A stretch of 64,000 bases of DNA. Source: Sphyrna mokarran (Eukaryota). The notes under the pieces were generated by a model. That model was not told where the DNA came from. It worked only from the letters and a program-made list of their open reading frames with translations, and did not search any database. The stretch covers positions 102,486,001-102,550,000 of the forward strand of contig JAGIQG010000009.1 of assembly GCA_024679065.1 (NCBI GenBank), given 5' to 3'. The position numbers and the translations under genes are program-made. Position 1 is the stretch's first letter. Each line of letters begins with the position of its first letter. Below are positions 4,376-62,579 of this stretch, piece after piece.

Positions 4376-7300
4376 TTTTTTTAAAAGCAACACAGTACGG
4401 GAAACAGGCCCTTCGGCCCAACGAGCCCGCGCCGCCGTCATAACTTTATAGTAACAATTCCATTTTCCTGTTCTAATTTTAGGTTATACCTAATATGGAA
4501 GAATCTCAATATAGGGACAATTTGTTTCCCAATCAGCCTAAGAGCGAATTTTTGGGAAGTGGGAGGAAACCGGAGCGCCCGGAGAAAACCCACGCAACCA
4601 CGGGGAGAACGCGCAAACTCCCGCAGACACCGGCCCAATTCCAAGTGTCTGCACAGGTACAGCGATAGTCACTGAGCTGTCATGGTGCCCTTCAGATGGT
4701 CCAGTAAAGCACTCATTTACAACATGAGGTACCAGTCAACCCATGAATCAACATGCAAGAGCTGTCCTCGCACCACCTGCCGAATGCATGCTCCTTGTTG
4801 GTCAAGTTGGACCGAATTACCTGTGGAAAAAAAAAAGCCATAGTTAAACAGTCCTACTATATCCCTCTATCTGCATAACGCTCATGTGGCTGTCCAAGAG
4901 ACCCTTAAACAGCCTTAGCGTGCCTGCTCCCACCACCTTACTCGGCAGTGCATTCCACACCCCCACTACCCTTTGTGTGAAAAACGGCCCTCTAATATTC
5001 GTCTTATACATAGCCCCCCTCACCCTAAGGCCATGACCCCTCGTCCTATCCATTTCTGAAGGTGGAAAAAGTTTACCTCCATTTACTCTATCTATACCCC
5101 TTATAATCTTATCCACCTCTATGAGATCCCCTCTAAGCTGACGTCTTTCAAGGGAAAACAACCCCAGTCTATCTAATCGTTCCTCATAAGACAGTCCTTC
5201 CATACCAGGCAGCATCCTGGTAAACTTCCTCTGCACTCTCTTCAAGGACTCCACATCCTTCCGATAGTACGGCGACCAGAACTGGGCGCAGTATTCCAAG
5301 TGAGGCCTAACCAATGTTCTATACAACTGCAACATCAAACTCCTACTCTTGTATTCTATACCCTTTTCTATGAAAGCTAACATACTATACGCTTTCTTTA
5401 TCACCTTCTCCACCTGTAAAGACACCTTCAGAGACTTGTGAACCTGCACCCCCAAGTCTCTCTGCGTCTCTATACTCCGAATAGTTTTACCTTTTATTCT
5501 ATAACTCTCTTCTACATTTTTCCAGCCAAAATGCATCACCTCGCATTTATCCGGATTAAATTCCATTTGCCATCTATCTGCCCAGTCTACCAACCTGTCT
5601 ATGTCCTGTTGTATTGCCTGGCACTGCTCTTCTGTACCCGCCAATCCAAGCATCTTAGTGTCATCAGCAAATTTGCTGATCTCACCACCTACCCCAACTT
5701 CCAAGTCGTTTATGTAGACCACAAATAGAAGAGGACCTAGTCCTGAGCCTTGTGGCACTCCACTAGTGACAGGCTTCCAGCCGGAAAAAGAGCCTTCCAC
5801 TACTACCCTCTGTCTCCTCCTCCCGAGCCAGTTTTCGACCCATCTACATACTTGGCCCTGTATCCCATGAGCCTTCACCTTCTCTATCAGTCTACCATGA
5901 GGAACCTTGTCAAACACCTTACTGAAATCCATGTAGACGACATCAACAGCATGTCCTTCATCAACTGTTTTTGTCACTTCTTCAAAAAATTCCACTAGAT
6001 TTGTTAGACAAGACTCCCCCTTGACGAAGCCATGCTGCATATCCCTGATCAGATCGCAGCGCTCCAGATGCTCATACATCCTGTCCCTAAGGATCCTCTC
6101 CATTAGCTTGCCTATAACTGAAGTCAAGCTCACCGGCCTATAGTTCCCTGGGTGATCCCTCTGACCTTTTTTAAACAACGGTACTACGTTTGCTATCCTC
6201 CAGTCCTCTGGGACCTCACCTGTGTCCAAGGAAGAGACAAAGATGTGCGTCAGAGGCCCAGCTAGGTCTTCCCTCAACTCCCTTAGCAGCCTGGGGTAAA
6301 TGCCATCAGGCCCCGGAGCTTTATATGTCTTTAAGCCGCCTAACAGCCCCAACACCTCTTTCCTCGTAATCTTTATTTCCCTCAACCGATCCTCAACTTT
6401 GTCAAAATCAGCAACAGACATCTGGCCAGTCTCCTGCGTGAATACCGACGCAAAGTATTCATTCAGGATCTCCCCCATTCCCTCATGCTCTAAGCATAGA
6501 TCCCCTCCACTGTCCCTAAGAGGTCCAATCTTGCCTCTAACCATCCTTTTGCTCCTTACATAGGTGTAAAATGCCTTTGGATTTTCCTTAATCCTACCTG
6601 CCAGAGCCACCTCGTGGCCCCTTTTTGCCTTTCTAATACCCCTTTAAAGATCCCGTCTACACTCTCTATAAGCTTCCAGCGCTGTCTCAGTCCCCAGTTG
6701 CCTAGATCTAATGTAAGCCTCTCGCTTCTTCCTGATCAAGTCCTCAATATCCCTGGTACGCCACGGTTCTCTAATCCTACCTTTCCCATCCTTCCTCCTT
6801 GCCGGCACGTATCTTTCCTGCAGAGAGTTTAGTTTTCCCTTGAAAGACTCCCACATGTACCTCGTCGACCTGCCTCGAAAAGCTTATCCCAGTCGGTATC
6901 TTTAAGATCTTGCCTAATCTGGCTGTATCTAGCCCTCCCCCAGTTAAATACCTTCCCTTTTGGGCAGGTCTCGTCCCTTTCCATTAATATCCTAAAGTAG
7001 ACAGAGTTGTGATCACTATTTGACACATGCTCTCCTACCTCGACGTCAACCACCTGCCCTGGCTCATTCCCCAGAACCAAATCCAGTATAGCCCCCTCTC
7101 TAGTCGGGCTATCCACATACTGGTCCAAGGACCCTTCCAAAACACAATGTACAAATTCCTCCCCGTCCACTCCTACAGCTCTGGGCACTCTCCAATCTAC
7201 TCCAGGGAAATTGAAATCTCCCACTACTACTACCCTATTTTTCCTACATTTATCTAAAATGCCCCTGCATATCCCTTCTTCCACGGCCCGCGGGCTGTTG

Positions 7301-7807
7301 GGCGGTCTGTAGTAAACACCCAACATAGTAACCACTCCCTTCCTATTTCCTCAAGTCCACCCATAGAGACTCAATTCCTAAATCATCCATACCTCCCTCC
7401 CTCTGCACTGCTATGATGTTGTCCTTAACTAATAAAGCCACTCCCCCGCCTCTCCTCACACCAACTCTGTCATGCCTAAAACATTTATATCCTGGAATAT
7501 TCAGTTGCCAGTCTTGCCCCTCCTTCAACCACGTCTCGGTCACCGCCACCACTTCTAAACTCCTCGTGAACATTATTGCCTTCAGTTCATCTGTTTTGCC
7601 AGTCACACTCCTCGCATTAAAACACATGCACTGAAGACCCTCAGCTCTCGGATATTCCTTTCTACCTTCTGGTGTTACCCTATCATCCCTCTCTCTCCCA
7701 CTCCCAGTTCCCTCTCTCTCCCCACCCTCCCTCCCTACTAGGTTAGGCAGACTCAGCCTGTGTTCCCTCGGAGTCAAGAGATAAGAATTTGCAGTCCTGA
7801 CCCCCAA
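4376..7807 (-). mobile_element. Near full-length CR1 LINE ORF2 (APE endonuclease + RT) with frameshifts and ~470-bp 3' UTR
   Basis: CFNARS, VTETW, GGGVALLVK, YYRPPN, GDFN, SDHN (endonuclease); [13 protein letters not shown] (RT); split over ORFs 7343-7807, 6829-7335, 6644-6856, 4844-6610; A-rich tail at ~4376. Confidence 0.95.
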
Positions 7808-7844: not shown

Positions 7845-8154
7845 TTTATTCATTCTTGAATGTGGGCATCACTGGCATTTGTTGCAGTTCCCGGTTGCCC
7901 AAGTTGTGATTCTGGAGTCACATGTAGGACAGACCCTGTTAACTGACAGATTTCCTTCCCTAAGGGGACATTAGTGAATCAGATGGGTTTTTCCCAACAA
8001 TGGTTTCATGGTCATTAGTAGACTCTTAATTCCAGGTTTTGTTTTATTGAATTCAAATTCTACCATCTGCCATGGTGGGATTCGAACCTGCTCCCCAAAG
8101 ATGAGTTTCTGGATTAATAGTCTAGCGATAATAACATTAGACTGTTGCCTCCCC
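7845..8154 (-). mobile_element. tRNA-derived SINE (same family as 1288-1652)
   Basis: Homologous to the other two copies; B-box GGTTCGAATCCC on minus. Confidence 0.7.
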
Positions 8155-15040: not shown

Positions 15041-15912
15041 AGCTAACAACCATCAGATCTCAGCAAAATAAAGACTGAATTAAATTTTATTTTTGCTTTT
15101 TTCTGTTGATATCCTTGTCTAATTTACATGGGTGCTAGTGTCATTGATTCACAAGTTTTTCATTAACCTTCAGGACAAGTGTGTGAGAATTCTTTTTTTA
15201 AAATCCTTCATTTTCAAATATATATAAACTTGCTGCTGGTTAATTGAAATTTAGTCACTCACAGAGTTTAAGAAAATGCACACATCCATTCACAAATATA
15301 GATCATAGACACAACAAAAGAAAACTCCTGATTTCCAGTTTTACTGTTTGCCAGGAGTTAACTGTCCAAAGCTGTAATTCTTCAAGCAGTGCAACAATTT
15401 GTTTCCCCAATCAGATGCAGATTTACTGCGCAACTTCAAATATTCTTTCCTCTCTCCGTGCAGTCGCTTGGCTCTTATCTATGGATACGTCATAAACGGA
15501 AATTGAAACTGTGCTTTTGACATTATTGAAAACCATATCATAAACATATAGGCTAACTGGCCCTGAGCTTCAAGTATATATTCATCAATAACCTGAAGTT
15601 TGTGAATGACCTGCTCACTACTTTTGCCTTGGTTCCTTTAGAACTGTTTTCTGAACTTTTGTAATAATGTCTATATTCCATCCGTTAAATATCCTGAGCA
15701 AATTCTGTGATATAATTTCTTAATCATTAAGTTAAAATTGACAAAGCTGTTAATGCATATTCCCTGGCTTTTCATAGTGATATCTGGTCGTTTCTGTATG
15801 GGGTATTGGTTTGATAAAACTGCGAGATGGCACAGTGGTTAGGACTGCTGCTTCACAGTTCCAGGGACTTGGGTTTGATTCCCTGCTTGGGTCACTGTCT
15901 GTGGACTTTCTA

Positions 15913-17041
15913 CAGGGAGTAAGTGGAGTGATCAGCAAGTTTGCAGACGACACAAAGATGACTGGACTTGCGGATAGTAAGGAGCATTGTCAGGCGATGC
16001 AGCAGGACATAGATAGGCTGGTAGCTTGGGCAGACAGATGGCAGATGGAATTCAATCCTGATAAATGTGAGGTGATGCATTTCGGGAGAAAGAATGTAGG
16101 GGGGAGGTATATGATAAAGGGTAGACCTATTAAGAGTATAGAAACGCAGAGGGACCTGGGGGTGCAGGTGAACAAGTCTCTGAAGGTGGCAGAGCAGGTG
16201 GAGAAAGTTGTGAAGAAAGCATATGGTATGCTAGCCTTTATAGGAAGGGGTATAGAGTACAAGAGCTGGCCTTTAATGTTGCAGTTGTATAAAACGTTGG
16301 TTAGACCTCATTTGGAATACTGCGTCCAGCTCTGGTCGCCTTACTACCGGAAGGACGTGGAGACTATGCAGAGAGTGCAGAGGAGGTTTACCAGGATGCT
16401 GCCTGGTATGGAAGGTCTGAGTTATGAGGAGAGGTTAGGCAAATTGGGACTGTTTTCCTTAGAAAGACGTAGACTTAGAGGAGATCTAATAGAGGTGTAC
16501 AAAATGCACAAAATAGGGATCATGAGCCTTGGGAGTCCCTGGGAAGTGTGTAAATAGATGATGATATTGATGTACTGTTTTTTATCCTACAGGTGCTTTG
16601 GTCCACCTTGTTGTCTAACAAGGGCATACACGCGATGGGTCGTGAGAGGGCTGCTCTTGGATTTTTTCGAGAGTATCTAGTGCTTCACGTCGTTAGTGTA
16701 CGCTTGACCTGGACCATTTGATGGGCAACACAACAGCTCAGTGACTATTGCTGTGCTGTGCAGATACATGGATTTGGGCCTGTGTCTATAGGAATTTGCG
16801 CATTCTCCCTGTGCTTGCGTGGGTTTTCTCCATGCTCCGGTTTCCTCCCACATCCCAAGGATGTGCTCTTAGGCTAATTGGCAAAACAAATTCTCCCTAA
16901 ATTGTCTCAAATTTGGTTTTTAATTCATAGATCTATAAACATAGACAGGGATCGCGGGTAGAGGTGGGAACATCGGGGTGGTGGCACGGGCTCGTTGGGC
17001 CGAAGGGCGTGTTTCCCGTGCTGTTTTATTCTTTGTTCTTT
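15913..17041 (+). mobile_element. CR1 LINE (subfamily 2) with V-SINE-derived 3' UTR, preceded by an HE1 SINE head (15827-15912)
   Basis: RT C-terminal ORF to 16557; UTR homologous to 61885-62369; TTCTTTG tail. Confidence 0.9.
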
Positions 17042-17199
17042 GAGAATTTAGGATGGCCAGTGCGTTGAACCAGTTCATTTTTCGGACTATGGGAGGAAAC
17101 CCATACAGACACTTGCAGACTCTACACAGACAGTGAGCCAAGCCAGCAATCGAATCCAAGCCCCGGCACTGTAAATTAATGCTTTTGATTTGTCATTAA

Positions 17200-18646: not shown

Positions 18647-19841
18647 GAATGTTGTAAAAATTGCTAAGACATTTTACAGAGGTGTCATCTATAAAGAATT
18701 ACATAACGCCACAAATAAAATGTTAGAGCTAATAATCAGAAACCTATTTAAAGAGGTAAGTTTAATGGAGCAAGTTAAACGAGGAAAGAGAAGTGGGAAG
18801 ACGGACACTTGTTTAAGTTTGTGGATCTTTAATTTTTTTGCCCAGAAGCATGTTATCTTAAAAGGAACACCTATGTGGTAATTTCCAGTTGCAGCGCGAC
18901 TATATTATCACCTCGCTTAAAGAGGACATTACCCTCTGTCCTGTGTCCATACCTCTTGTTTGAAGTAACTGTATTCATCAAGAGTATACTTGCAATTCAG
19001 TGCAACTTCCCTTTAAGAAAGAGACAGACTGCCTTTAATAACGTAAGAACACAAGAACTAGGAGCAGAAATAGGCCATCAGGCTCCTCGAGCCTCCTCTG
19101 CCATTCAATAAGATCATGGCTGATTTTTAAGAACTGATAGACTCCAAAATCATGCACGGGATTACAATGAACCACTAACCTGATGCAGGCCAATCAAACA
19201 CTCCCCACTCCTCCTCATACCAAGAGATAATTCCCAAACCTTACACTCCTTTCCTGCAGATCCAGCCCAGAAATGGACTCAGAGGAGGAAGAGAGTTGCA
19301 AAAAGGAGGTAAAGCAAATTTAAATCTTTCCTTGCCAGATACAGTCATGATGAGAGTTTGAAGATGAGGAGGGAGATGGAGGCAGACTGAAACTCACCTC
19401 TGAGTTCCTCATAGATGTAGTGGCCTATGTTCCTCTACCCAAACGCCAGTAAAACTTTCCCTGCACCACAGACTTCCTCAATGCAATGCTCTACCTCACA
19501 CACTGTGACCTATCCATGTAATGCCACACACTCCTTATTCAGGCAGAGGGTCATGACTTCAAGTATTATATAGGATTTACCTGTTTTTAACCTGGATCAA
19601 TCAAATCATACATGTACAGAAATACTGTCTGCTCGCACTAATGTCAAAATCACAAGAAGTTAGGGGCTAGGCTAACTTCATAATATATCTTGGAGTTTCT
19701 GACCTGGTCTCAACAACTTAAATTCACAGTTTGAGACTCTCAAATCAGAACTCATCCAAGTTCTCTACTTGCTAATAGATTAAACTGGTATTTAATATGT
19801 CAGAAGTACTGTACTGTGGAAGCAAAAAAACAGGAGCACAT

Positions 19842-20120
19842 GGGTGTGGCACAGTGGTTAGTGCTGCTGCCTTGCAGCACCAGGGACCTGTATTCAATTC
19901 CTGGCTTGGGTCACTGCCTGCGCGGAGTCTGCACATTCTCCGTGTCTGCGTGGGTTTCCTCTGGGTGCTCTAGTTTCTTCCCATAGTCTGAAAGACGTGC
20001 TGGTTAGGTGCATTGGCCATGCTAAATTCCCCCTCAGTGTACCCGAACAGGCTCCAGCGTGTGGCCACTAGGGGATTTTCACAATAATGTAAGCCTACTT
20101 GTGACGCTAATAAATAAATG
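19842..20120 (+). mobile_element. V-SINE with alternative (Rex1-like) tail
   Basis: tRNA head + V domain; tail GGGGATTTTCACA..AAGCCTACTTGTGACGCTAATAAATAAA. Confidence 0.8.
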
Positions 20121-20329
20121 TTTTTAAAAACCTGCAGTTTCATACCATTTACCAATAGATGGAGATCACAAACGGTTGCTTTAATGTGTATACAAATATT
20201 CCATTTCTGAATTTGACCTGAATTTAATGAACAAAACCTCAGTGTATATTATTGATTTCAATGGATGCAAAATAAATTTCAGCTGCTTTATTGAAAGGAG
20301 GGAAATTAAAGTGAGGTGACACCAGACTT

Positions 20330-20638: not shown

Positions 20639-21227
20639 CATAAGTGAAGTGGAATTTCATTTTACACCTCAGTGCATTTCAATAACTGGTAGATTTTCTA
20701 TTCTACTGGAGCCAGTGGTAAAGAATATTGGGCATGTTGCGAAATTGGTGCCGGGTCATTATTAGTCAGTTTTACACTGCTGTCGTGGACCAATTTCATT
20801 CAGAATTAATAGCTACTGCAGACAGCAGGGTGAATTAAATAAACAGCTAAGGAGGAGCTGCAAATGACATTTTTCCTGGTCTCAAGATATCCCAAAGCTT
20901 CTCATAGCCAATAGCTTGCTTTTGAATAATACTGTGACTGTTGTAATGTAGAAACCAAGGCAGTCAATTTGCACATGGCAAAATATTGTAAACAGCTTGG
21001 AATGGTCTTCACCTGAACCACACTGGGACCAATGTCCTGATGAATGGTGTAACCTGGATGGTAGAGAGGGTACTTAACATCATCATGGGGTGGGGTTCAT
21101 GGTTATAGAGAATTGAAAAATTAAAGAGGAGAGACAATGCAATAATACAGAGTGAATATTGGTAGCCAGAGTGTGAAAGGAACGGACAGAATATACAAGT
21201 ATAAGACTGCACCAGAAAATTTATTGT

Positions 21228-21519
21228 TTTTATTTATTAGTGTCACAAGTAGGCTTGCATTAATTGTGAAATGAACTTACTGTGAAAGTTCCCTAATTGT
21301 GACACTCTATCTATTCGTGTACACTGAGGGAAAATTTAGCATAGGCAACACACCTAACCAGCACGTCTTTTGGACTGTGGGAGGAAAATGGAGCCCCCAG
21401 AGGAAACCCACGTAGACATGGGGAGAATGTGCAGACTCCACACAGACAATGAACCAAGGTGGGAATCAAACCCAGTCCCTGGCACTGTGAGGCAGCAGCA
21501 CTGACCACGGTGCCGCCCA
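21228..21519 (-). mobile_element. V-SINE with alternative (Rex1-like) tail
   Basis: Same structure as 19842-20120, reversed. Confidence 0.8.
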
Positions 21520-26374: not shown

Positions 26375-26975
26375 CTGTTGAGATTGAAAAGTTTCCCACT
26401 GAGTTGAACCCCAATCATCAGCCTCATAGAAGTTAGAATGAATGACCAGACTGAGATAGATACTGAAGAGAATTGACACAATCACACAGCCTCACTTGGC
26501 ACCCGTTCAGATACAAAAGGATTCAGTCTCCAGTTCACTGTGAAGGTTGCTGCCATACAGCAATTGCAGAGGCGTAACAAAAGTTGCTAGGCATCCAAAT
26601 CTCTGGACAAGTTTCCAAAGGATTTTGGAGTTGTTGGAGGCAAAATCATGAGACAAATTAAGAAAGGCTATATAGGGCTCTTTGCAATTTCCTTTTTCTC
26701 AGATTTGTCAAGTGACAAAAATCATGCCTATGGTTCCCTGGATAGTCAGAAACAGCCTGGAAAAATGTCTCTGCTGAAGTGTCAGAGGTGAGTCCTTAAC
26801 AAGGGACCTCCATGAGGTGAACTTAGTCTAAGGTGCTGTTTTTGTCCCCACCTTTTTAAATGGCAGTGAGACTTGAGTTACCAAAGGCACCTCCGATCAC
26901 TGGAGAATTCCCCTCAGCTAGAAAAGTTGTCAGATTAGGAATCATCATCTGAAAACTAATTTCTATCAAGTAGAT

Positions 26976-27270
26976 GGCGGCACAGTAGTTAATACTGCTG
27001 CCTCACAGTTCCAGGGACCCGGGTCTAATTCCAGGCTTCAGTCCCTGTCTGTGTGGTGTCTACACATTCTCCCTGTGTTTGTGTGGGTTTCCTCTAGATG
27101 CTCAGCTTCCTCCCACAACCCAAAGGATGTGCTGGCTAGGTGCATTGGCCATACTAAATTCTTCCCCAGTGTACTTCAACAGGTGCTGGAGTATGGCAAC
27201 TAGAGATTTCCACAGTAACTTCATTGCAGTGTTAATGTAAGCCTATTTGTGACACTACTAAGTAAACTTT
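26976..27270 (+). mobile_element. V-SINE with alternative tail
   Basis: Head, V domain, tail AAGCCTATTTGTGACACTA. Confidence 0.8.
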
Positions 27271-27308
27271 AAACTTAAATAACCTTTTCCACAAAATATT
27301 CCACTTAC

Positions 27309-35914: not shown

Positions 35915-36004
35915 CTTAAAGGTAGAAGTAATAATTGTTTCAATGTAAAAGCGACAATGTCGAATTAGTCAATGCAAAATTGTTCAAACAATAACATTTA
36001 TGTA

Positions 36005-36270
36005 CTTATTAGTCACAAGTAAGCTTACAATAACACTGCAATGATGTTATTCTGAAAATCCCTTGTTGCCACATTCTGACACCCGTTTGGGTACACTGAG
36101 GGGAGCTTAGTATGGCCAGCACGTCTTTCAGACGATGGGAGGAAACCAGAACATCTGGAGGAAACCCATACAGACACAGGGAGAATGTGCAAATTCCACG
36201 CAGGCCATGATCCAAGCCAGGAGTCGAACTAGGGTCCCTGGTGCTGTGAGGTAGCAGGGCTAACCACTCT
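36005..36270 (-). mobile_element. V-SINE with alternative tail
   Basis: Reverse-complement head, V domain and tail. Confidence 0.75.
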
Positions 36271-36559
36271 GATGTAAAATATTGAACTGGATTTGCATTG
36301 CATTAACATACTACATGATGATCATGCAATAGGGACATTATGCTCCACAGCTCATTGTAACTGGGATCTTTGTAGTGACATTTCATGGTAACCTTTCACT
36401 CATTTTTGTGGAAGGCCTAATTCCATTACACATTGAAAATTTTGCATCAGTTTTTTAAAATTTATTTATTCATACTGCAATGAAGTTACTGTGAAAATCT
36501 CCTCGTCGCCACACTCCAGTGCCTGTTTGGGTACACTGAGGGAATATTTAGCATGGTCA

Positions 36560-37928: not shown

Positions 37929-38332
37929 GTGGTGCGAGGACAGCTCTTGGACGTTGATTCATGGGTTGCCTGGTGCTTCATGTCGTAAATGAGTGCTTTA
38001 TCTGGACCATCTGAAGGGCACCATGGCAGCTCAGTGACTATCGCTGTAGCTGTGCAGACACTTGGAATTGGGCCGGTGTCTGCGGGAGTTTGCACGTTCT
38101 CCCCATGGTTGCGTGGGTTTTCTCCGGGCGCTCCGGTTTCCTCCCACATCCCAAAAAAATTCGCTCTTAGGCTGATTGGGAAACAAATTGTCCCTACATT
38201 GAGACTCTTCCATATTAGGAATAACCTAAAATTAGAATAGGATAATGGAATTGTTACTATATAGTTATGACGGCGGCGCGGGCTCGTTGGGCTGAAGGGC
38301 CTATTTCCCGTGCTGTGTTGCTCTAAAAAAAA
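37929..38332 (+). mobile_element. 5'-truncated CR1 consisting only of the V-SINE-derived 3' UTR
   Basis: Closely matches 61948-62369 and reverse 4376-4778; A-tail. Confidence 0.9.
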
Positions 38333-41570: not shown

Positions 41571-42679
41571 CTGATTGTCTTAAAAATTGCAACCAGTTAT
41601 AAGTCATCAGGAAATTTGTTGGAAATAGCAAATTAATTCCAATATAGACAGACGTGAGATATTGTGTTTTCAATGGAGATAGGAATAAATAATGCATTCC
41701 TTCGGAACTAAGAATTGAAATAAATAGAGGGTCGGAGATATCTTGAGTAGATAATTAAAAGTAGCAATGCAGATTAACAAAGCCACATGCAAATAAAACA
41801 GAGTTTCATTTCTCAAAGATGAGAATCCAAAGTGAAACAAGCTATATAACATACTTGTGAAAGTTTGATTGATTCATGTTTAAAATACTGCATACAGTTG
41901 TAATCTCTATATTAACAAAAGAATGTAGAAGCACTGGAAAAAAGATTTCCAAAATTAAATCATAATTATGAGGGTGCTTCTCAACTTCTCTGACCCACAG
42001 TGCCACAATGTCCAACGCAAATGGGCAACGTACTCTTTCACATGCATATTGTAGATGTTGTAGACGTATCTTTCCATTACATGACAAAGCAAGAATCCTT
42101 CTCACTTTTACCATCCTGTGTGGAAGGAATTACAGATTGAATATTCAATTTGTGTGGCTACATTGTGAAAATCCTTGGTCATCAACAGTGGGACTTGAAC
42201 ACAAAGCTTCGGACTCAGAGATAAGGACATCGCTGATTGCAAAACAAGGGGTAGGGTTTATGGCCTCACTCGCTCCGAAATTGGAAATCCGACCTTTCCA
42301 TGGTCTGCCCCTTCCCCACTCCAATTCTTGTGGAAGACAGGATAGTAAAATTTACCCCAAGGTCTTCTTTAGGCTGTAACTATTAGGAAAAATTGCATAG
42401 GCTAGACTCTAAAAAAAAGGTCTGAAAGGTGATCTGATAGAGGTCCTTAAAATGATGAAAGGATACTATTGGGATGACCTATAGATGTTTCTTTCAGTTG
42501 TGAAGAGATTCCAAACTAAATTAAGAAATGAATTTGATTGAAATGTCTTCACTTAGACAGTGATGAGAACGTGGAATTTGCTACAACAGCAAGTGGTTAA
42601 TGTGAATAGCATAGATGTGTTGTGCCTGCCACACAGTCTGTTTTATGCAATTGGCAAAGAATTGTGAGTAAAGTTAAAG

Positions 42680-42932
42680 TTGATTTATTAGTCACAAGTA
42701 AGGCTTACATTAATACAGCAGTGAAGTTACTTTGAAATTCCCTGAGTTGCCACAGCCTGGCACCTGTTCGGGGCAATGCACCTAACCAGAATGTGGGAGG
42801 AAACTGGAGAACTAAGAGGAAACCCACGCAGACACAGGGAGAATGTGTAAAGTCCACACAGGCAGTGACCGGAGCTGGGAATTGAACCCAGCATTGTGAA
42901 GCAGTAGTGCTAACCACTGTGCTACCATGCCA
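42680..42932 (-). mobile_element. V-SINE with alternative tail
   Basis: TTTATTAGTCACAAGTAAGGCTTACATT end; V domain reversed. Confidence 0.75.
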
Positions 42933-43639
42933 TTCCACTCTTCTTGTTAGACATCTTACTAGTACAGTAACATTTATCTACACACACACACACACACAAT
43001 TATTAATCATCCGCACAATCAATACTAAATTATCTTACGGAATACTAAAGTTCAAGTCCAATACTAGACCTTGACTTAACTTTTGCGTGACTGGCAAGTA
43101 CTCCCAGTCAGATATTGACCTTTATCTGCAAGTTATTTTCCGTAGTCTTCTGTGAGTCTGGTCTTTTGGTCTGATACCCTAGCTCTGGTCTTCCTTCCTT
43201 CTTTGGTGTGGTGGCTGTCCTCGTAAGGCTCAATCAAGTGCTGCCACACCAACCTCTGGGTGTGTACCCAACAGGTACTCCCTGAAGGAGGAACGAGACT
43301 CCGAAAGCTTATGCTGCCAAATAAACTTGGTGGACATTAACCCTGATATTGCAAGACTTTTTACTGTATGTACCCAACAGCTGTGCCTGTCAGTGCTGGA
43401 GACACATAGATCACATACCTCCCTCACAAATAATGCTATCTATGTGTCTGGTAAACAACTCATTTTGACCAGAAAGTGTCCTTTGTCCTTGATATGGCCT
43501 ATATCCTGTCTATTCCAACGTCAGCAGCTGTAGCCTGTTCACCTCTGCCCAATTTCTTCTGAGGCTGTCTGTTTCAGTGCTTGTCCAATTATCCCAGCAT
43601 GCTCTTGCAAATTGTCATCTTAGGGGTCCATTTGGCCAC

Positions 43640-44126: not shown

Positions 44127-45141
44127 TGCAGATGCATGTAAGTAGAAGCTAGATAACTACAAGAGGAAGAATGAAATAAGCTTTTTTTTATTCATTAGTT
44201 GTAAGTACGCTTACATTAACACTGCAATGAAGTTACTGTGAAAATCCTCTGGTGCCTGTTCAGGTACACTGAGGGAAAATTTAGCATGGCCAATACATGT
44301 AACCAGCATGTCTTTCAGACTGAGAGGAAATCGAATAGATAGGGGAGAACGTGTCCCAAGACGGGAATCGAATCAGATTCCCTGTGCTCTGAGGCAACGG
44401 TAGTAACCTCTGTGTCACCTAGTGTAGATCCTAGAACAACACTGCGGAAAACCACTCCAAATTCAACACCAGTTGAATTAAATTCTAGGTTTTTCACATT
44501 GCCATGGGATAAGTGGAATGTGTGATATGGGAACACCAGTCTGACAGTTTGTGATTCTGTGAACAGATATGGGAGTTTAACCCGACCTGTGTAATGTCAT
44601 CTTCGGTCAGATGCTGTCAACTGGGAAGAGTTAGCCAAGTTCCATTGGCCCCTATTGACATCACACACTTCAATAAAGAAAATAATTTTTGTGAAGATAC
44701 GCATAAATATTATACACAGATGACAGGTTGGGTTGGTGATTACAACTGAATAGAAATCTAGGAACAAACATTCAGAGGTAAAGAGTTTCAGATTTGATTC
44801 AATGAATGGGGAATGGCTCCAATAGAAGGATATGGACCCAGTAAGGGCTGAAGTTTTTTTTTAAATTTAGTACATCAAGATTGGTTTGGAGGTCCAAAGG
44901 CCCTGTTCCTGTGCTGTACTTTTCTTTGCTCTTTTGACATTGAACTATAGATGAGAATCCTCTGATGTTCATCTATCCTGGGAGACAGTGGCTGTACCCA
45001 GGGTATATATCATTACTGTATCGAAGATCACATCGTATTTTTGCATTATTGCACATAGCCCACATTCTAATATCCATATAAGGAAACACTAGCTCCAAAA
45101 AGTCGAGAAAGTACTCCCTTAGCTCTTTGCATGGTTTAACA

Positions 45142-47397: not shown

Positions 47398-48589
47398 TTG
47401 GCCACAGACAACAGAGAGTAGCGGTGGAAGGGTGTTTTCCAGAATTGAGATCTGTGATCAGTGATGTCCCGCAGGGATCTGTGCTGGGACTCCTTTTGTT
47501 TGCAATATAATGTTTATACATGATTTGGAGGAAAATGTAGGTAGTATGATCAGTAAGTTTGCGGATGACACAAAGATTGGGGGAGTTGTGAATGGTGAAG
47601 AGGATTGCCAGAGGATTCAGGATATAAATAGGCTGAAGATCTGGATGGAGAAATGGCTGAATGGTCTGTTCCTGTTACTGTGTTGTTCTTTGTTTTTTGT
47701 AGGGAGCTCAAAACTTGGTGTTACGGAGGTCCTGTACAACTGAAGATATCTTTACTTCTGGACTCCAATCCTCTTCTAATTTTCCTTCTTAATTGCTGGT
47801 TGCAGTTGTTTCTTCCACATCGTTGGATTATGGGAGGAAACCAAAGCTCCTGGACTAAATGCACAGAGATAGAGATAGAATAGAATGTATGGAGGAACCG
47901 AGGCCAAAACTGGACCTGGGTTTCTGTGAGGCAGCAGTGCCAACCACTTATACCTCCATACCAGCCCTCACTCCCTGATAGAGAGCCTCAGTCACTCAGT
48001 ATAACAATAGGTTCACTATCTCATCTTTTCCCTCACTCACTGTGAACCAGCAACTGCTGTCAATATTAACCCTCAAAGGGAAGCTGGATAAATAATTAAA
48101 GAGGTACAGACGATTCGAAGAAGAAAAAAGATAACTTCAGGAGCTGATTTGGCATTGGATGGTACAAGTACTTTTAGAAGCAGCTGGAATGGGGAGTCCT
48201 TTATTTCTCGGTGAATGAATTTTAAAAAATGGCCAAAAGCATCTCTTCCTCAAAGCCATCTCTCTGATGACAATGATACAAATGCACCCTCTGCTGGCGT
48301 CTGGATGCTAGTGCACCAATGGATGAGACAGCATCAGGGATCCATGATGTGGAACTGCGACCATGACACCACACAACCCTGCCGCAGCAATGTCCGCATG
48401 ACATGCCAGGTCATCGACACAGATGCCATTATCACACATGAGAAAACCATCCGCCAGGTATATGCTACATACGCATGCCAACAATGGCTACCTGATACAC
48501 GATGTAGAGATGCCGGCGTTGGACTGGGGTAAACTCAGTAAAGTTTTACAACACCAATTTTAAATCCAACCAATTTATTTGATAGTAAA

Positions 48590-48627
48590 TCCACGAGCTT
48601 TCGACTTTACAGCCTTCGTCAGGCAAA
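48590..48627 (-). ncRNA. Minimal type I hammerhead ribozyme (mirror copy)
   Basis: Reverse complement UUUGC-CUGACGA-AGGCUGUAAAGUC-GAAAGCUC-GUGGA. Confidence 0.75.
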
Positions 48628-48635
48628 AACACTGC

Positions 48636-48675
48636 ATTTGCCTGACGAAGGCTGTAAAGTCGAAAGCTCGCGGAT
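48636..48675 (+). ncRNA. Minimal type I hammerhead ribozyme
   Basis: Stem I AUUUGC/GCGGAU; core CUGACGA; stem II GGCU-GUAA-AGUC; GAAA; palindromic AGCU stem III; predicted cleavage after C48669. Confidence 0.8.
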
Positions 48676-48999
48676 TTACTATCAAATAAATTGGTTGGAT
48701 TTAAAATTGGTGTTGTAAAACTTTACTGAGTTTACCTGATACACTGCAGGAAAGGATGTCCCAACACATGGTACATTGACGAGACCATGCAGACTTTACG
48801 ACAATGGATGAATGGACACTGCTCAACAATTACCAGGCAGGAATGTTCCCTTCCTGTCAGGAAACACTTCAGGAGTCGAGAGTATACTGCCTCCGATCTT
48901 CGGGTATGCGTTTTCCAAGGCGGTCTTCAACAACACAGAATTGCCAAGCAGAAACTGATAGCGAAGTTCCAAACATATGAGGAAGGACAGAGCACTCAT

Positions 49000-54084: not shown

Positions 54085-54208
54085 AGGAGATCTATAAACA
54101 TAGACAGCGATCGTGGGTAGAGGTGTGAACATCGGGGTGGTGGCTCGGGCTCATTGGGCCGAAGGGCCTGTTTCCCATGCTGTTTTGTTCTTTGTTCTTT
54201 GTTCTTTG
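54085..54208 (+). mobile_element. CR1 subfamily-2 extreme 3' end
   Basis: Matches 16928-17041; (TTCTTTG)n tail. Confidence 0.8.
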
Positions 54209-56434: not shown

Positions 56435-57138
56435 TGTTGAGAAAAGATTTTAAGAAAAGGTTCAGAGGAAATAATATTGTTTGTTTAGGTGCTTGTATAA
56501 CAATTTGTATTCATAGGTATCTGTATAACAGTTTACATTGGTAGGGATAGGACACAATAAATATGTTTGAATTTATTGTTATACAATCACAAAAAACATG
56601 CATTTAAGCTCCACCATGTTAACAGAAGTTCAGAATATTAAAATGACACAATGCATATTAGCTGGGTTAGCCACATTCCTGAACACAATTAGCTGGCTTA
56701 ATCATACTGGTGGCTGATACATGGTCAAAGTCTTGGATGAAAACCAGCCACAAGAGATTAGGGAGGGCATTCATAGAAAATGATAAGGAAGCTGACTGGA
56801 CAATGAGTATTATAAACTCAAGGACTCCAGATGGGAGAAAGGAACAAAATACTAATGAGTTGTGTCCATGAGACCACGCGATGATCATGCACAAGCCCAC
56901 CCTATGTTATGCCTTTGGCATTGGATATGTGACTAAGGTATGTAATATATAATCAATACTATTGGATAAGGCCCAGGTGTAATGGACTGTGTAGATGTTT
57001 GAATAATGTATAAGAATGGATATTTGTCAGAGAGAGGTAATGGATTTAACAGAAGCCATCTCCCCACATGCGAAATAAACCATTTAATATGAGGACCTGA
57101 GCATTGAGTAATTTCTTTGAGATTCAGTCCCATTAATA
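56435..57138 (+). repeat. 5' LTR
   Basis: Aligns along its length with 60414-61021 plus 62370-62517; contains AATAAA. Confidence 0.85.
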
Positions 57139-57141
57139 ATT

Positions 57142-60413: not shown

Positions 60414-62517
60414 TGTTAAGGGAAATTTAGGAATAGATTTAGAGGGAATATTATTGTTAGTTTAGGTGCCTGTATTAACAATTTATATCTCTAGGTACCT
60501 GAATAGCAATTTATTTTGGTAGGGATACATAAGTACGTAATAAATGTGTGTGATTTTATTGCTTTACGATCACAGAAGGCATTCATTTAAGTTCCATGTT
60601 GTTAACAGAAGTTCAGAATATTAAAATGACACAAAATGGATACCAGCTGGTTTAGCCACATTCCTGATCACAATAAGCTGGCTTCATCACACGTTTATGT
60701 ATAATAGACCATAGATATTGGTGGCTGCTACCAGTCTATGGTCCAAGGTCTCAAATGGAAGCCAGACCACAAGATTAGGGACGGCATTCATAGAAAATAA
60801 GGAAGGCCACTGGACAAGGAGTATTGTAACTCAAAGACTCCAGATGGGGGAAAGGGAGATAATAATAATGAGTTGTGTCAGTGAGACCACAAACTGATCA
60901 TGCATAAGCCCACCTTATGTAATGCCTTTCTCATTGAATATGCGACTAATGTGAATAAGCTGTACTCAATGTTATTAAATAAGGTACAGCCGTGATGGGC
61001 TGTGTCGATGTTTGAAACATGGACTTGGAAGTTGGGGTAGGTGGTGAGATCAGCAAATTTGCTGATGACACCAAGATGCTTGGATTGGCGGGTACAGAAG
61101 AGCAGTGCCAGGCAATACAACAGGACATAGATAGGTTGGTAGACTGGGCAGATAGATGGCAAATGGAATTTAATCCGGATAAATGCGAGGTGATGCATTT
61201 TGGCCGGAAAAATGTAGAAGAGAGTTATAGGATAAAAGGTAAAACTAATACGAGCATAGAGACGCAGAGAGACTTGGGGGTGCAGGTTCACAAGTCTCTG
61301 AAGGTGTCCTCACAGGTGGAGAAGGTGATAAAGAAGGCGTATAGTATGTTAGCTTTCATAGAAAAGGGTATAGAATACAAGAGTAGGAGTTTGATGTTGC
61401 AATTGTATAGAACGTTGGTTAGGCCTCACTTGGAATACTGCGTCCAGTTCTGGTCGCCGTACTATCGGAAGGATGTGGAGTCCTTGGAGAGAGTGCAGAG
61501 GAGGTTTACCAGGATGCTGCCTGGTATGGAAGGACTGTCCTATGAGGAACGATTAGATAGACTGGGGTTGTTTTCCCTTGAAAGACGTCGGCTTAGAGGG
61601 GATCTCATAGAGGTGTATAAGATTATAAGGGGTATAGATAGAGTAAATGGAGGTAAACTTTTTCCGCCTTTAGAAATGGATAGGACGAGGGGTCATGGCC
61701 ATAGGGTGAGGGGGGCTATGTATAGGACGAATATTAGAGGGCAGTTTTTCACACAAAGGGTAGTGGGGGTGTGGAATGCCTGCCGAGTAAGGTGGTGGGA
61801 GCAGGCACGCTGGGGCTGTTTAAGGGTCTCTTGGACAGCCACATGAGCGGTATGCAGATAGAGGGATATATTAGGACTGTTTAACTACGGCTTTTTTCCA
61901 CAGGTAATTCGGTCCATACTTGACCAACATTGAGCATGCATTCGGCAGGTGGTGCGGGTACAGCTCTTGGATGTTGATTCATGGGTTGCCTGGTACCTCA
62001 TGTCGTAAATGAGTGCTTTATGTGGACCATCTGAAGGGCACCATGACAGCTCAGAGACTATCGATGTGGCTGTGCAGACACTTGGAATTGGGCCGGTGTC
62101 TGCGGGAGTTTGCGCGTTCTCCCCGTGGTTGCGTGGGTTTTCTCCGGGCACTCCGGTTTCCTCCCACAACCCAAAAATTCGCTCTTAGGCTGATTGGGAA
62201 ACAAATTGTCCCTATAGTGAGAATTTTCCATATTAGGAATAATATATATATTATTATATAGGAATAATATAATAAGATAATGGATTTGCTACTATATAGT
62301 TATGACGGCGGCGCGGGCTCGTTGGGCCGAAGGGCCTGATTCCCGTGCTGTGTTGCTCTTAAAAAAAAATGTATGAGAATGGATGTTTTTCCTTTATTTG
62401 TCAGAGAGACACTGGGCTTTAACAGAAGCCATCCACCTGCCGGTGAAAATAAACTGTTTGATGCAAGGACCAACCCTGAGCATTGAGTAATTTCTTTGAG
62501 ATTCTCTTCCATTAACA
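60414..62517 (+). repeat. 3' LTR interrupted by a CR1 (61022-62369)
   Basis: LTR homology stops at ..GATGTTTGAAACATG and resumes at TGTATGAGAATGGAT.. to CCATTAACA. Confidence 0.85.
61022..62369 (+). mobile_element. Young 5'-truncated CR1 with V-SINE-derived 3' UTR
   Basis: Near-identical to the reverse of 4376-5707; RT C-terminal ORF; A-tail. Confidence 0.95.
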
Positions 62518-62579
62518 ATGCTAATTCTTGTTGTATTTTAACTATTCTTAAATAAAGTTTGTGTTAATAAATGCTGATT

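What the first reader, a model, noticed from the sequence alone, without database searches (positions are those of the whole stretch)
61885..62369. CR1 LINE lineage whose 3' UTR is a captured V-SINE
Seen: after the ORF2 stop, the ~480-bp UTR contains a decayed tRNA-head remnant (GGCACCATGACAGCTCAG.., B box lost), a recognisable V domain (GTCTGCGGGAGTTTGCGCGTTCTCCCCGTGGTTGCGTGGGTTTTCTCCGGG..GGTTTCCTCCCACA) and the CR1 tail. It recurs at 4376-4843 and 37929-38332, and in a clearly diverged subfamily at 16560-17041. Known: SINEs normally borrow LINE tails, and the function of the V domain is unclear. Inference: the reverse occurred, with an autonomous LINE adopting its SINE as its 3' end. Retention of the V core in two subfamilies while adjacent UTR diverged suggests the V domain benefits retrotransposition or RNA stability.
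Basis: partly seen in the sequence, partly recalled or inferred. Interest (0 to 1): 0.7.

Follow-up and report, generated by a model that had tools for sequence, protein, structure and literature searches.

The report
Shark LINE carrying a captured V-SINE
A self-copying retrotransposon lineage in a shark- or ray-like genome carries, in its 3' untranslated region, the front part of one of the short elements that normally parasitise it; the passenger has lost its promoter but kept its RNA fold, which offers a test of why this ancient 'V domain' is conserved.

Summary
A CR1 LINE lineage (three copies of subfamily A, two of B; the 4376 copy is on the minus strand) has a ~485-nt 3' UTR holding a V-SINE head and V domain. 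0 of 10 other CR1 3' ends in the window carry it. An empty paralogous site shows ORF2 and UTR inserted as one unit. A and B share 11 substitutions and the B-box deletion, so there was one capture. Head+V is 84% identical between subfamilies, against 60-67% at four-fold sites (p 0.0002-0.012). The Pol III promoter is broken, yet the SINE fold is kept (31-33 of 37 pairs, null ~25, P 0.001-0.004; B 29/34, P 0.024). Corrections: the SINE is internal, not the 3' end; the tail loop is LINE-type, not HE1-type; head and V are conserved together; a separate ~135-nt hairpin lies upstream. Best reading: a captured RNA fold kept as a post-transcriptional cis element (function untested). A 2016 paper says such domains are not found in LINEs; nine literature searches found no report; Repbase/Dfam were unavailable. 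Only two lineages, one window.

The parts
61022..61884 (+). 5'-truncated CR1 ORF2 (RT C-terminal half, aa ~313-599; one 1-nt frameshift near 61780), copy A1
   Evidence: 95% identical to A2 over the whole copy (1258/1321)
61885..61903 (+). UTR start: pyrimidine run ending in CAG (splice-acceptor-like; function untested)
61901..62033 (+). ~135-nt domain of unknown origin, not SINE-derived, predicted long rod hairpin closed by a GGUCCA/UGGACC stem
   Evidence: fold z -2.4, -3.2, -3.2 in A2, A1, B; pairs kept A to B P 0.001 and 0.0035, B to A P 0.14; found only in these LINE copies; no meaningful Rfam match
62036..62096 (+). V-SINE tRNA-derived head remnant: A box altered, B box deleted, hairpin arms kept
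62097..62168 (+). V-domain core
62169..62214 (+). 3' part of the V domain
62215..62306 (+). spacer, unalignable between subfamilies (29-41%) and not matched to free SINE 3' parts
62307..62368 (+). CR1-type tail stem-loop (GAAG loop) and short A run
   Evidence: 87-89% A vs B
61019..61021 (.). left target-site duplication ATG (right copy 62369-62371)
   Evidence: empty paralogous site at ~57000 has a single ATG
4376..7663 (-). copy A2: near-complete ORF2 (endonuclease + RT, with a stop and frameshifts in the 5' third) and the full V-bearing UTR (4376-4843); 5' boundary not fixed, no TSD found
37929..38332 (+). copy A3: 5'-truncated within the rod domain, UTR only
15916..17041 (+). copy B: diverged subfamily, ORF2 fragment (internal deletion of ~230 nt before the stop) and V-bearing UTR 16560-17041
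54088..54208 (+). copy B2: spacer and tail only, 105/113 identical to B

Best explanation
SHOWN: an ancestral chondrichthyan CR1 master acquired, once, about 400 nt between its ORF2 stop and its tail: a rod-hairpin domain, the head plus V domain of a V-SINE, and a spacer. The chimera stayed mobile and split into subfamilies A and B. SHOWN computationally: the passenger lost its Pol III promoter, changes about 2.5-3 times more slowly than four-fold sites, and keeps the multi-helix fold predicted for the free SINE (a stem joining the head's 5' end to the V core encloses three hairpins, followed by a V hairpin). INFERRED: selection acts on the RNA fold, inside the Pol II LINE transcript. MOST LIKELY MECHANISM (inferred, untested): the fold is a cis-acting platform that protects the RNA or binds a host protein and so raises the fraction of transcripts reaching ORF2p at the tail stem-loop about 110 nt downstream. 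It would do the same job in free V-SINEs, which would explain the domain's conservation. How the capture happened (SINE insertion into the UTR, or template switching) cannot be told.
For: One insertion unit: the empty paralog is continuous across 61016/62365 with a 3-bp TSD. 0 of 10 other CR1 3' ends have V. A+B ORF2 form a clade (99.4/100 nt, 97.9/95 aa; 89.8/97 with 25 named references, nested in chondrichthyan CR1). 11 substitutions and two deletions are shared by 4 of 4 UTRs and 0 of 9 free SINEs. Head+V identity A vs B is 149-151 of 178, against 31/52 to 33/49 at four-fold sites (Fisher p 0.0002-0.012). Structure predicted from the free-SINE consensus alone: 31, 32, 33 of 37 pairs kept in A copies (null 24-26, P 0.004, 0.002, 0.001) and 29 of 34 in B (P 0.024). 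With a hand-set 35-pair structure the UTR rows keep 30-34 pairs (P<=0.0004) while 9 decayed free copies give P 0.04-0.81; 12 of 35 pairs show a change on both sides, 1 of 500 shuffles as high. By eye, 4 of 4 published frog and fish V-SINEs shown in full keep the head-to-V stem with A-U/G-C covariation.
Against: Only two lineages, and B's V region comes from a single decayed copy. Pair retention between A and B alone is borderline (P 0.015-0.13 in six tests; 0.086 and 0.012), so many compensations may predate capture. Compensated double changes alone are significant in some rows only (P 0.013-0.10; 0.02-0.16). The 35-pair structure was set after seeing the UTRs and the rows are related. B head+V folds no better than shuffles (z -1.0) and whole-UTR z-scores are weak (-1.8, -0.9). 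The four-fold baseline has only about 50 sites. Ten sister CR1 ends do without the element, so it is not required for CR1 mobility. No expression or assay data.
Confidence: 0.55

Rival explanations
1. Passenger kept similar by module exchange: the captured SINE has no effect on the LINE RNA, but head+V was swapped between subfamilies A and B more recently than ORF2 diverged (V as template-switch hotspot).
For: The high-identity island is bounded by a 62-70% domain and an unalignable spacer, and the spacer was probably replaced by recombination in one lineage. PMC5804259 (Discussion) proposes such domains as recombination hotspots. A SINE head is fused to LINE B at the V 5' boundary.
Against: Needs two crossovers that fall at the two ends of the SINE-derived block. 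It does not explain pair retention relative to free SINEs after promoter loss. Recent conversion from the window's free SINEs is excluded by 11 diagnostic substitutions.
Confidence: 0.2
2. Neutral passenger: captured once and hitchhiking. The fold was inherited from an older donor SINE family and the apparent constraint is small-sample noise.
For: One B copy; about 50 four-fold sites; A-B pair tests borderline. By eye the UTR's V shares two features with published MER6/Ac1 V domains that the window's free copies mostly lack, so the donor was probably a different family.
Against: p 0.0002-0.012 against four-fold sites. Changes that break the A box are compensated on the opposite strand of the hairpin, which a promoter-bearing donor would not be expected to carry. 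8-10 CpG remain in 131 nt of A copies in a window with CpG o/e 0.33.
Confidence: 0.13
3. The element is selected at the DNA or processing level rather than for RNA stability: a factor-binding site, a splice acceptor feeding spliced non-autonomous RNAs, or an endonuclease site that releases a SINE-like RNA.
For: An acceptor-like pyrimidine tract plus CAG opens the UTR in both subfamilies. A strict pattern chosen after the fact matched only 2 sites on both strands, one of them A2. PMC4824008 lists transcriptional and epigenetic roles.
Against: 0 of 5 copies start at the acceptor or at the head's 5' end. Compensatory changes point to RNA pairing. A1 and B miss the strict acceptor pattern.
Confidence: 0.08
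4. Reverse direction: this LINE UTR is the source of the V domain.
For: LINE UTRs have supplied SINE bodies (RTE and Vingi 5' UTRs; PMC5786205).
Against: V-SINEs occur from cnidarians to vertebrates (PMC4824008, PMC5804259) whereas A+B is nested in chondrichthyan CR1. The UTR includes a broken tRNA-derived head. Sister CR1s lack the domain.
Confidence: 0.02
5. Independent SINE insertions next to LINE copies, or an assembly or annotation artefact.
For: Free V-SINEs are dense in this window; no TSD was found for A2, A3 or B.
Against: Same junctions, same B-box deletion and same upstream domain in all copies; empty-site paralog for A1.
Confidence: 0.01

Closest known systems
   Same: tRNA-derived head followed by V domain; CR1-type tail stem-loop. 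The window's free SINEs with a CR1-type tail fit this description (name assigned from that table and recall, not by alignment to an HE1 consensus).
   Different: Here head+V lies inside an autonomous LINE's UTR, the promoter is broken, the tail loop is GAAG, and 11 substitutions separate it from all 9 free copies compared.
MER6/MER6A (Mariner-derived MITE carrying an Ac1-like V-SINE; PMC6887750)
   Same: Another mobile element captured a V-SINE that lost its own promoter and spread it.
   Different: The host is a non-autonomous DNA transposon with no RNA intermediate, and the paper sections read report no selection on the V fold. Here the host moves through RNA and the head's 5' half is kept.
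[quoted passage not shown]
   Same: A SINE 'conserved domain' sequence found in a LINE UTR; for Ingi-3_AC, recombination with a SINE is suggested as possible.
   Different: 5' UTR, mostly LINE-to-SINE direction, no tRNA head carried, not the V domain.
Canonical vertebrate CR1 LINEs (PMC13343379; sister lineages in this window)
   Same: Endonuclease plus RT ORF2, 5' truncation, short TSD, 3' stem-loop tail.
   Different: Stop-to-loop distance about 440 nt instead of under about 100 nt; structured, SINE-derived insert.

Membership tests
CR1-clade LINE | ORF2 with APE endonuclease and RT domains | tested here: met
   PF03372 and PF00078 above cut-off in copy A2
CR1-clade LINE | ORF2 groups with CR1 | tested here: met
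   named hits are elasmobranch, turtle and bird elements; nested in chondrichthyan clade 94.5/97; no L2 outgroup was included, and the CR1 label of those hits rests on recall
CR1-clade LINE | 3' stem-loop with terminal short repeat | tested here: met
   shared tail architecture with 10 other CR1 ends; B ends in 7-nt repeats, A in a short A run
CR1-clade LINE | esterase-type ORF1 and 5' UTR | not testable with these tools
   all five copies are 5'-truncated
V-SINE superfamily (as an element) | ~80-120 bp V domain | tested here: met
   profile of the window's free copies E 1e-20 to 3e-23; exact 11-12-mers in published V-SINE consensi
V-SINE superfamily (as an element) | tRNA-derived head with intact A and B boxes | tested here: not met
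   A box 2 mismatches, B box deleted; box patterns were recalled consensus motifs
V-SINE superfamily (as an element) | independent non-autonomous insertion with its own ends | tested here: not met
   moves with ORF2 as one unit; 0 of 5 copies begin at the head
HE1 family as donor | HE1-type 3' body and tail | tested here: not met
   spacer scores at shuffle level against both free SINE 3' parts; loop GAAG versus GAAT/AAAT
HE1 family as donor | identity to the published HE1 consensus | not testable with these tools
   source paper not held; no Repbase or Dfam access
Known structured RNA family (Rfam) | covariance-model match for the rod domain or head+V | tested here: not met
   best E 6.8 (A1) and 4.9 (B), far below gathering scores; ARAGORN found 0 tRNAs

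The most novel reading that the evidence does not exclude
The V-SINE head plus V domain is a portable, promoter-independent RNA fold that boosts retrotransposition of any RNA carrying it. An autonomous CR1 lineage exapted it from its own parasite and has kept it under selection. This would be the first SINE 'highly conserved domain' shown under constraint in a LINE 3' UTR, and would explain why V has persisted from cnidarians to vertebrates.
Probability: 0.3. Interest if true: 0.85.

Novelty: new variant of a known kind. Interest (0 to 1): 0.62.

Why it matters
Why SINE central domains such as V are conserved over hundreds of millions of years is an open question. PMC4824008 lists transcription, RNA stability, epigenetic control and host benefit as untested options. 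[quoted passage not shown] This lineage is a counter-example and a natural experiment: the Pol III promoter is gone, so continued conservation points to an RNA-level role. Because the element is autonomous, head+V can be deleted or mutated in one cis reporter. The proposed fold, pairing the head's 5' end with the V core, also gives specific mutations to test in ordinary V-SINEs.

Tried and rejected
Rfam scans of both UTR types: chance-level only. ARAGORN: no tRNA. Protein-database searches with two translated UTR frames, to find relatives in other genomes: no hits; uninformative, since the UTR is non-coding. GTDB scan with a 20-nt head motif: one match with no flanking similarity, taken as chance. 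The CR1 consensus supplement of PMC13343379 gave 0 motif hits, but its cells are cut at 400 characters, so 3' UTRs were not visible and even the common CR1 tail motif was not found: uninformative. First ORF2 tree on aa 400-590 gave only 38% support for A+B because B covers part of it; superseded by aa 313-513. Long-range pairing of the UTR start with the tail: 15/19 antisense match in A2 (0 of 300 shuffles), 13/19 in B (6 of 300), 12/19 in A1 (95 of 300), but duplex energies were not exceptional and ensemble probability was <=0.024 against 0.76-0.96 for the local stem: not adopted. The idea that the ancestral short UTR was split at its T run: 2 of 12 comparisons had under 25 of 500 shuffles as high, both for A: not adopted. 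TSD searches for A2, A3, B and B2 found nothing convincing. A V-region tree separated the UTR copies from free SINEs (98.6/97) but did not identify a donor family.

Full report
1. Setting. The window is repeat-rich vertebrate DNA, 42% G+C. The C-terminal 250 aa of the ORF at 4844-6643(-) has 1980 relatives at E<=1e-30; the most identical named animal hits are elasmobranch (Stegostoma 67%, Mustelus 62%, Chiloscyllium 60%), with birds and turtles at 38-52%. Pfam gives RT and endonuclease domains. The source is therefore most likely a shark or ray (inference), and the element a CR1 LINE.

2. Observation. My first alignment failed because the 4376 copy lies on the minus strand; on the right strand the four copies align. 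Subfamily A has three copies: A1 61022-62368(+), A2 4376-~7700(-) with nearly all of ORF2, and A3 37929-38332(+), UTR only; they are 92-95% identical. Subfamily B has one copy with ORF2 and full UTR (15916-17041) and one tail-only copy (~54088-54208). The window also holds many free V-SINEs of two types, with a CR1-type or an L2-type tail (type names from recall). A profile of 13 of them hits the four UTRs at E 1e-20 to 3e-23, and four V-core motifs occur 12-14 times each among published V-SINE and MER6 sequences (supplement of PMC6887750). The head remnant is marginal by sequence (shuffles as high: 93, 21, 7, 286 of 2000) but colinear with the SINE head for about 57 nt, followed by an 18-nt deletion. 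B-box mismatches are 4-5 in 4 of 4 UTRs against 0-2 in 14 of 14 free heads; A-box mismatches are 2 in the UTRs against 0-2 in free heads.

3. One unit, one capture, SINE to LINE. A1 sits in one copy of a ~700-bp direct repeat. The other copy (56449-57140) is continuous across the site, matching 60426-61016 and then 62365-62519, and has one ATG where A1 is flanked by two. ORF2 fragment and UTR thus arrived together. No TSD was found for the other four copies. None of 10 other CR1 3' ends printed overlaps a V hit, and their tails lie within about 100 nt of the stop (copy G unclear), against ~440 nt here. A and B ORF2 are sisters: 99.4/100 (nucleotide) and 97.9/95 (protein) on aa 313-513, and 89.8/97 among 25 named references, nested within chondrichthyan elements, with none of the 25 inside the clade. 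All 4 UTRs share 11 substitutions and two deletions absent from 9 of 9 free SINEs aligned. V-SINEs range from cnidarians to vertebrates (PMC4824008, PMC5804259), so the LINE is the recipient.

4. The SINE is internal, not the 3' end. From 5' to 3' the UTR has a pyrimidine run, a ~135-nt domain (61901-62033) found only in these LINE copies, head (62036-62096), V (62097-62214), a 90-nt spacer and the tail stem-loop (62307-62352). The spacer scores at shuffle level against the 3' parts of both free SINE types, and between A and B. The tail loop is GAAG in 5 of 5 copies; 9 of 10 other ORF2-linked or same-family CR1 tails have GAAG or AAAG, while 8 of 8 HE1-type tails have GAAT or AAAT. Five further tails of unclear family were left out of this count. 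Against this, whole-tail identity does not discriminate for A (35 of 52 with the HE1-type consensus, 36-37 with the closest LINEs) and only slightly for B (36 against 38-40). In L2 LINEs the loop is the specificity determinant (PMC4176376, abstract only). The simplest reading is that the LINE kept its own type of tail; a donor SINE that already carried such a tail is not excluded.

5. Constraint. A-versus-B identity: four-fold sites 31/52 or 31/48 and 33/49; upstream domain 62-70%; head 83-85%; V core 84-87%; V 3' part 82-84%; spacer 29-41%; tail 87-89%. Head+V together is 149-151 of 178, Jukes-Cantor distance 0.17-0.18 against 0.43-0.58 (Fisher p 0.0002-0.012), close to codon positions 1+2 (85%). 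The baseline is small and B is one decayed copy.

6. The fold. The free SINE consensus and A3 fold independently into the same architecture: a stem pairing the head's first nucleotides with the middle of the V core encloses three hairpins, then a V hairpin follows; B's minimum-energy fold shares only two hairpins. Using the structure predicted from the SINE consensus alone, A copies keep 31, 32 and 33 of 37 pairs (null 24-26; P 0.004, 0.002, 0.001) and B 29 of 34 (P 0.024); compensated double changes number 4, 4, 4, 3 (P 0.049, 0.030, 0.013, 0.10). With a 35-pair structure set by hand after seeing the UTRs, the UTR rows carry 35-40 differences from the SINE majority yet keep 30-34 pairs (P<=0.0004), while 9 free copies with 17-33 differences give P 0.04-0.81. 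12 of 35 pairs show a change on both sides (1 of 500 shuffles), and structures slid by 1-3 columns fall from 87% to 35-54% paired; these controls ignore relatedness or favour a derived structure. Changes that break the A box are matched on the opposite strand of the first hairpin. By eye, 4 of 4 published frog and fish V-SINEs shown in full keep the closing stem, two with A-U and two with G-C at one pair. Between A and B alone the signal is borderline (P 0.015-0.13), so part of the compensation may be older than the capture. The upstream domain is neutral in sequence but folds as a long rod in both subfamilies (z -2.4 to -3.2; pairs kept A to B P 0.001 and 0.0035, B to A P 0.14). It has no Rfam match and its origin is unexplained.

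7. Mechanism. Shown: single capture, co-mobilisation, promoter loss, slow evolution. Computed but not probed: the fold. Inferred: selection on RNA structure within the LINE transcript. I put 0.55 on a post-transcriptional cis role, either protecting the RNA or binding a host protein that helps it reach ORF2p at the nearby tail. Module exchange between subfamilies (0.2), a neutral passenger (0.13) and a processing or DNA-level role (0.08) remain.

8. Prior knowledge. Nine full-text searches found no description of a V-bearing LINE UTR; the library omits most subscription papers. [quoted passage not shown] The original HE1 and V-SINE papers were not seen (for the 2002 paper). With five copies in 64 kb the family is probably abundant and may sit undescribed, or described, in repeat libraries that I could not search.

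9. Verdict. Real, and more structured than first described. It is a CR1 LINE, not a V-SINE. Capture of a V-SINE by another mobile element has a precedent (MER6), so this is a new variant of a known kind. It contradicts a stated premise in the literature on SINE conserved domains and makes the V-domain question testable in an autonomous element. The evidence for function rests on two lineages in one window. Interest 0.62.

Noticed in passing
window 15819-15915: A V-SINE head, ending at the start of the V domain, is joined directly to the 5'-truncated LINE B: a SINE-head/LINE chimera that may reflect a template switch. B's 3' end abuts a truncated minus-strand V-SINE at 17043-17174 whose remainder was not found on the other side.
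   Followed up: partly
window 61885-61903; 4825-4843(-); 16560-16592: Pyrimidine tract plus CAG with a branch-point-like motif and no upstream AG right after the ORF2 stop in both subfamilies; looks like a 3' splice site.
   Followed up: partly
window 61900-61918 versus 62321-62339: The start of the rod domain is antisense to the tail stem-loop (15/19 in A2, 13/19 in B, 12/19 in A1); not favoured thermodynamically; origin unexplained.
   Followed up: partly
window 56449-57140 and 60426-62519: LTR-like direct repeats about 76% identical around a ~3.3-kb degraded interior, with a primer-site-like motif after the first copy (identified from recall only); possibly an old endogenous retroelement. 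It supplied the empty site.
   Followed up: partly
window 48528-48736: Near-perfect inverted repeat: 100-nt arms, 99% complementary, 9-nt spacer; possibly a small foldback element.
   Followed up: no
window 19838-20130, 21225-21518, 26972-27280, 35995-36272, 42670-42935, 44180-44420: A second free V-SINE family with the same head and V but an L2-type tail, beside the CR1-tailed type: tail exchange within one genome.
   Followed up: partly
window 61022, 15916, 34572: Three CR1 copies from different subfamilies begin at about the same ORF2 position (aa ~313-317); may be chance.
   Followed up: no
window 62240-62270: A1 has a 17-nt AT-rich expansion in the spacer that A2 and A3 lack.
   Followed up: no
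protein P0004: A CR1-type RT 64% identical to this ORF2 is annotated under a bacterial species on a 1.7-kb contig, probably host contamination of that assembly.
   Followed up: no
window ~7850-8150(-): Another SINE-like repeat, with a B-box-like motif, lies just upstream of copy A2; family not tested.
   Followed up: no
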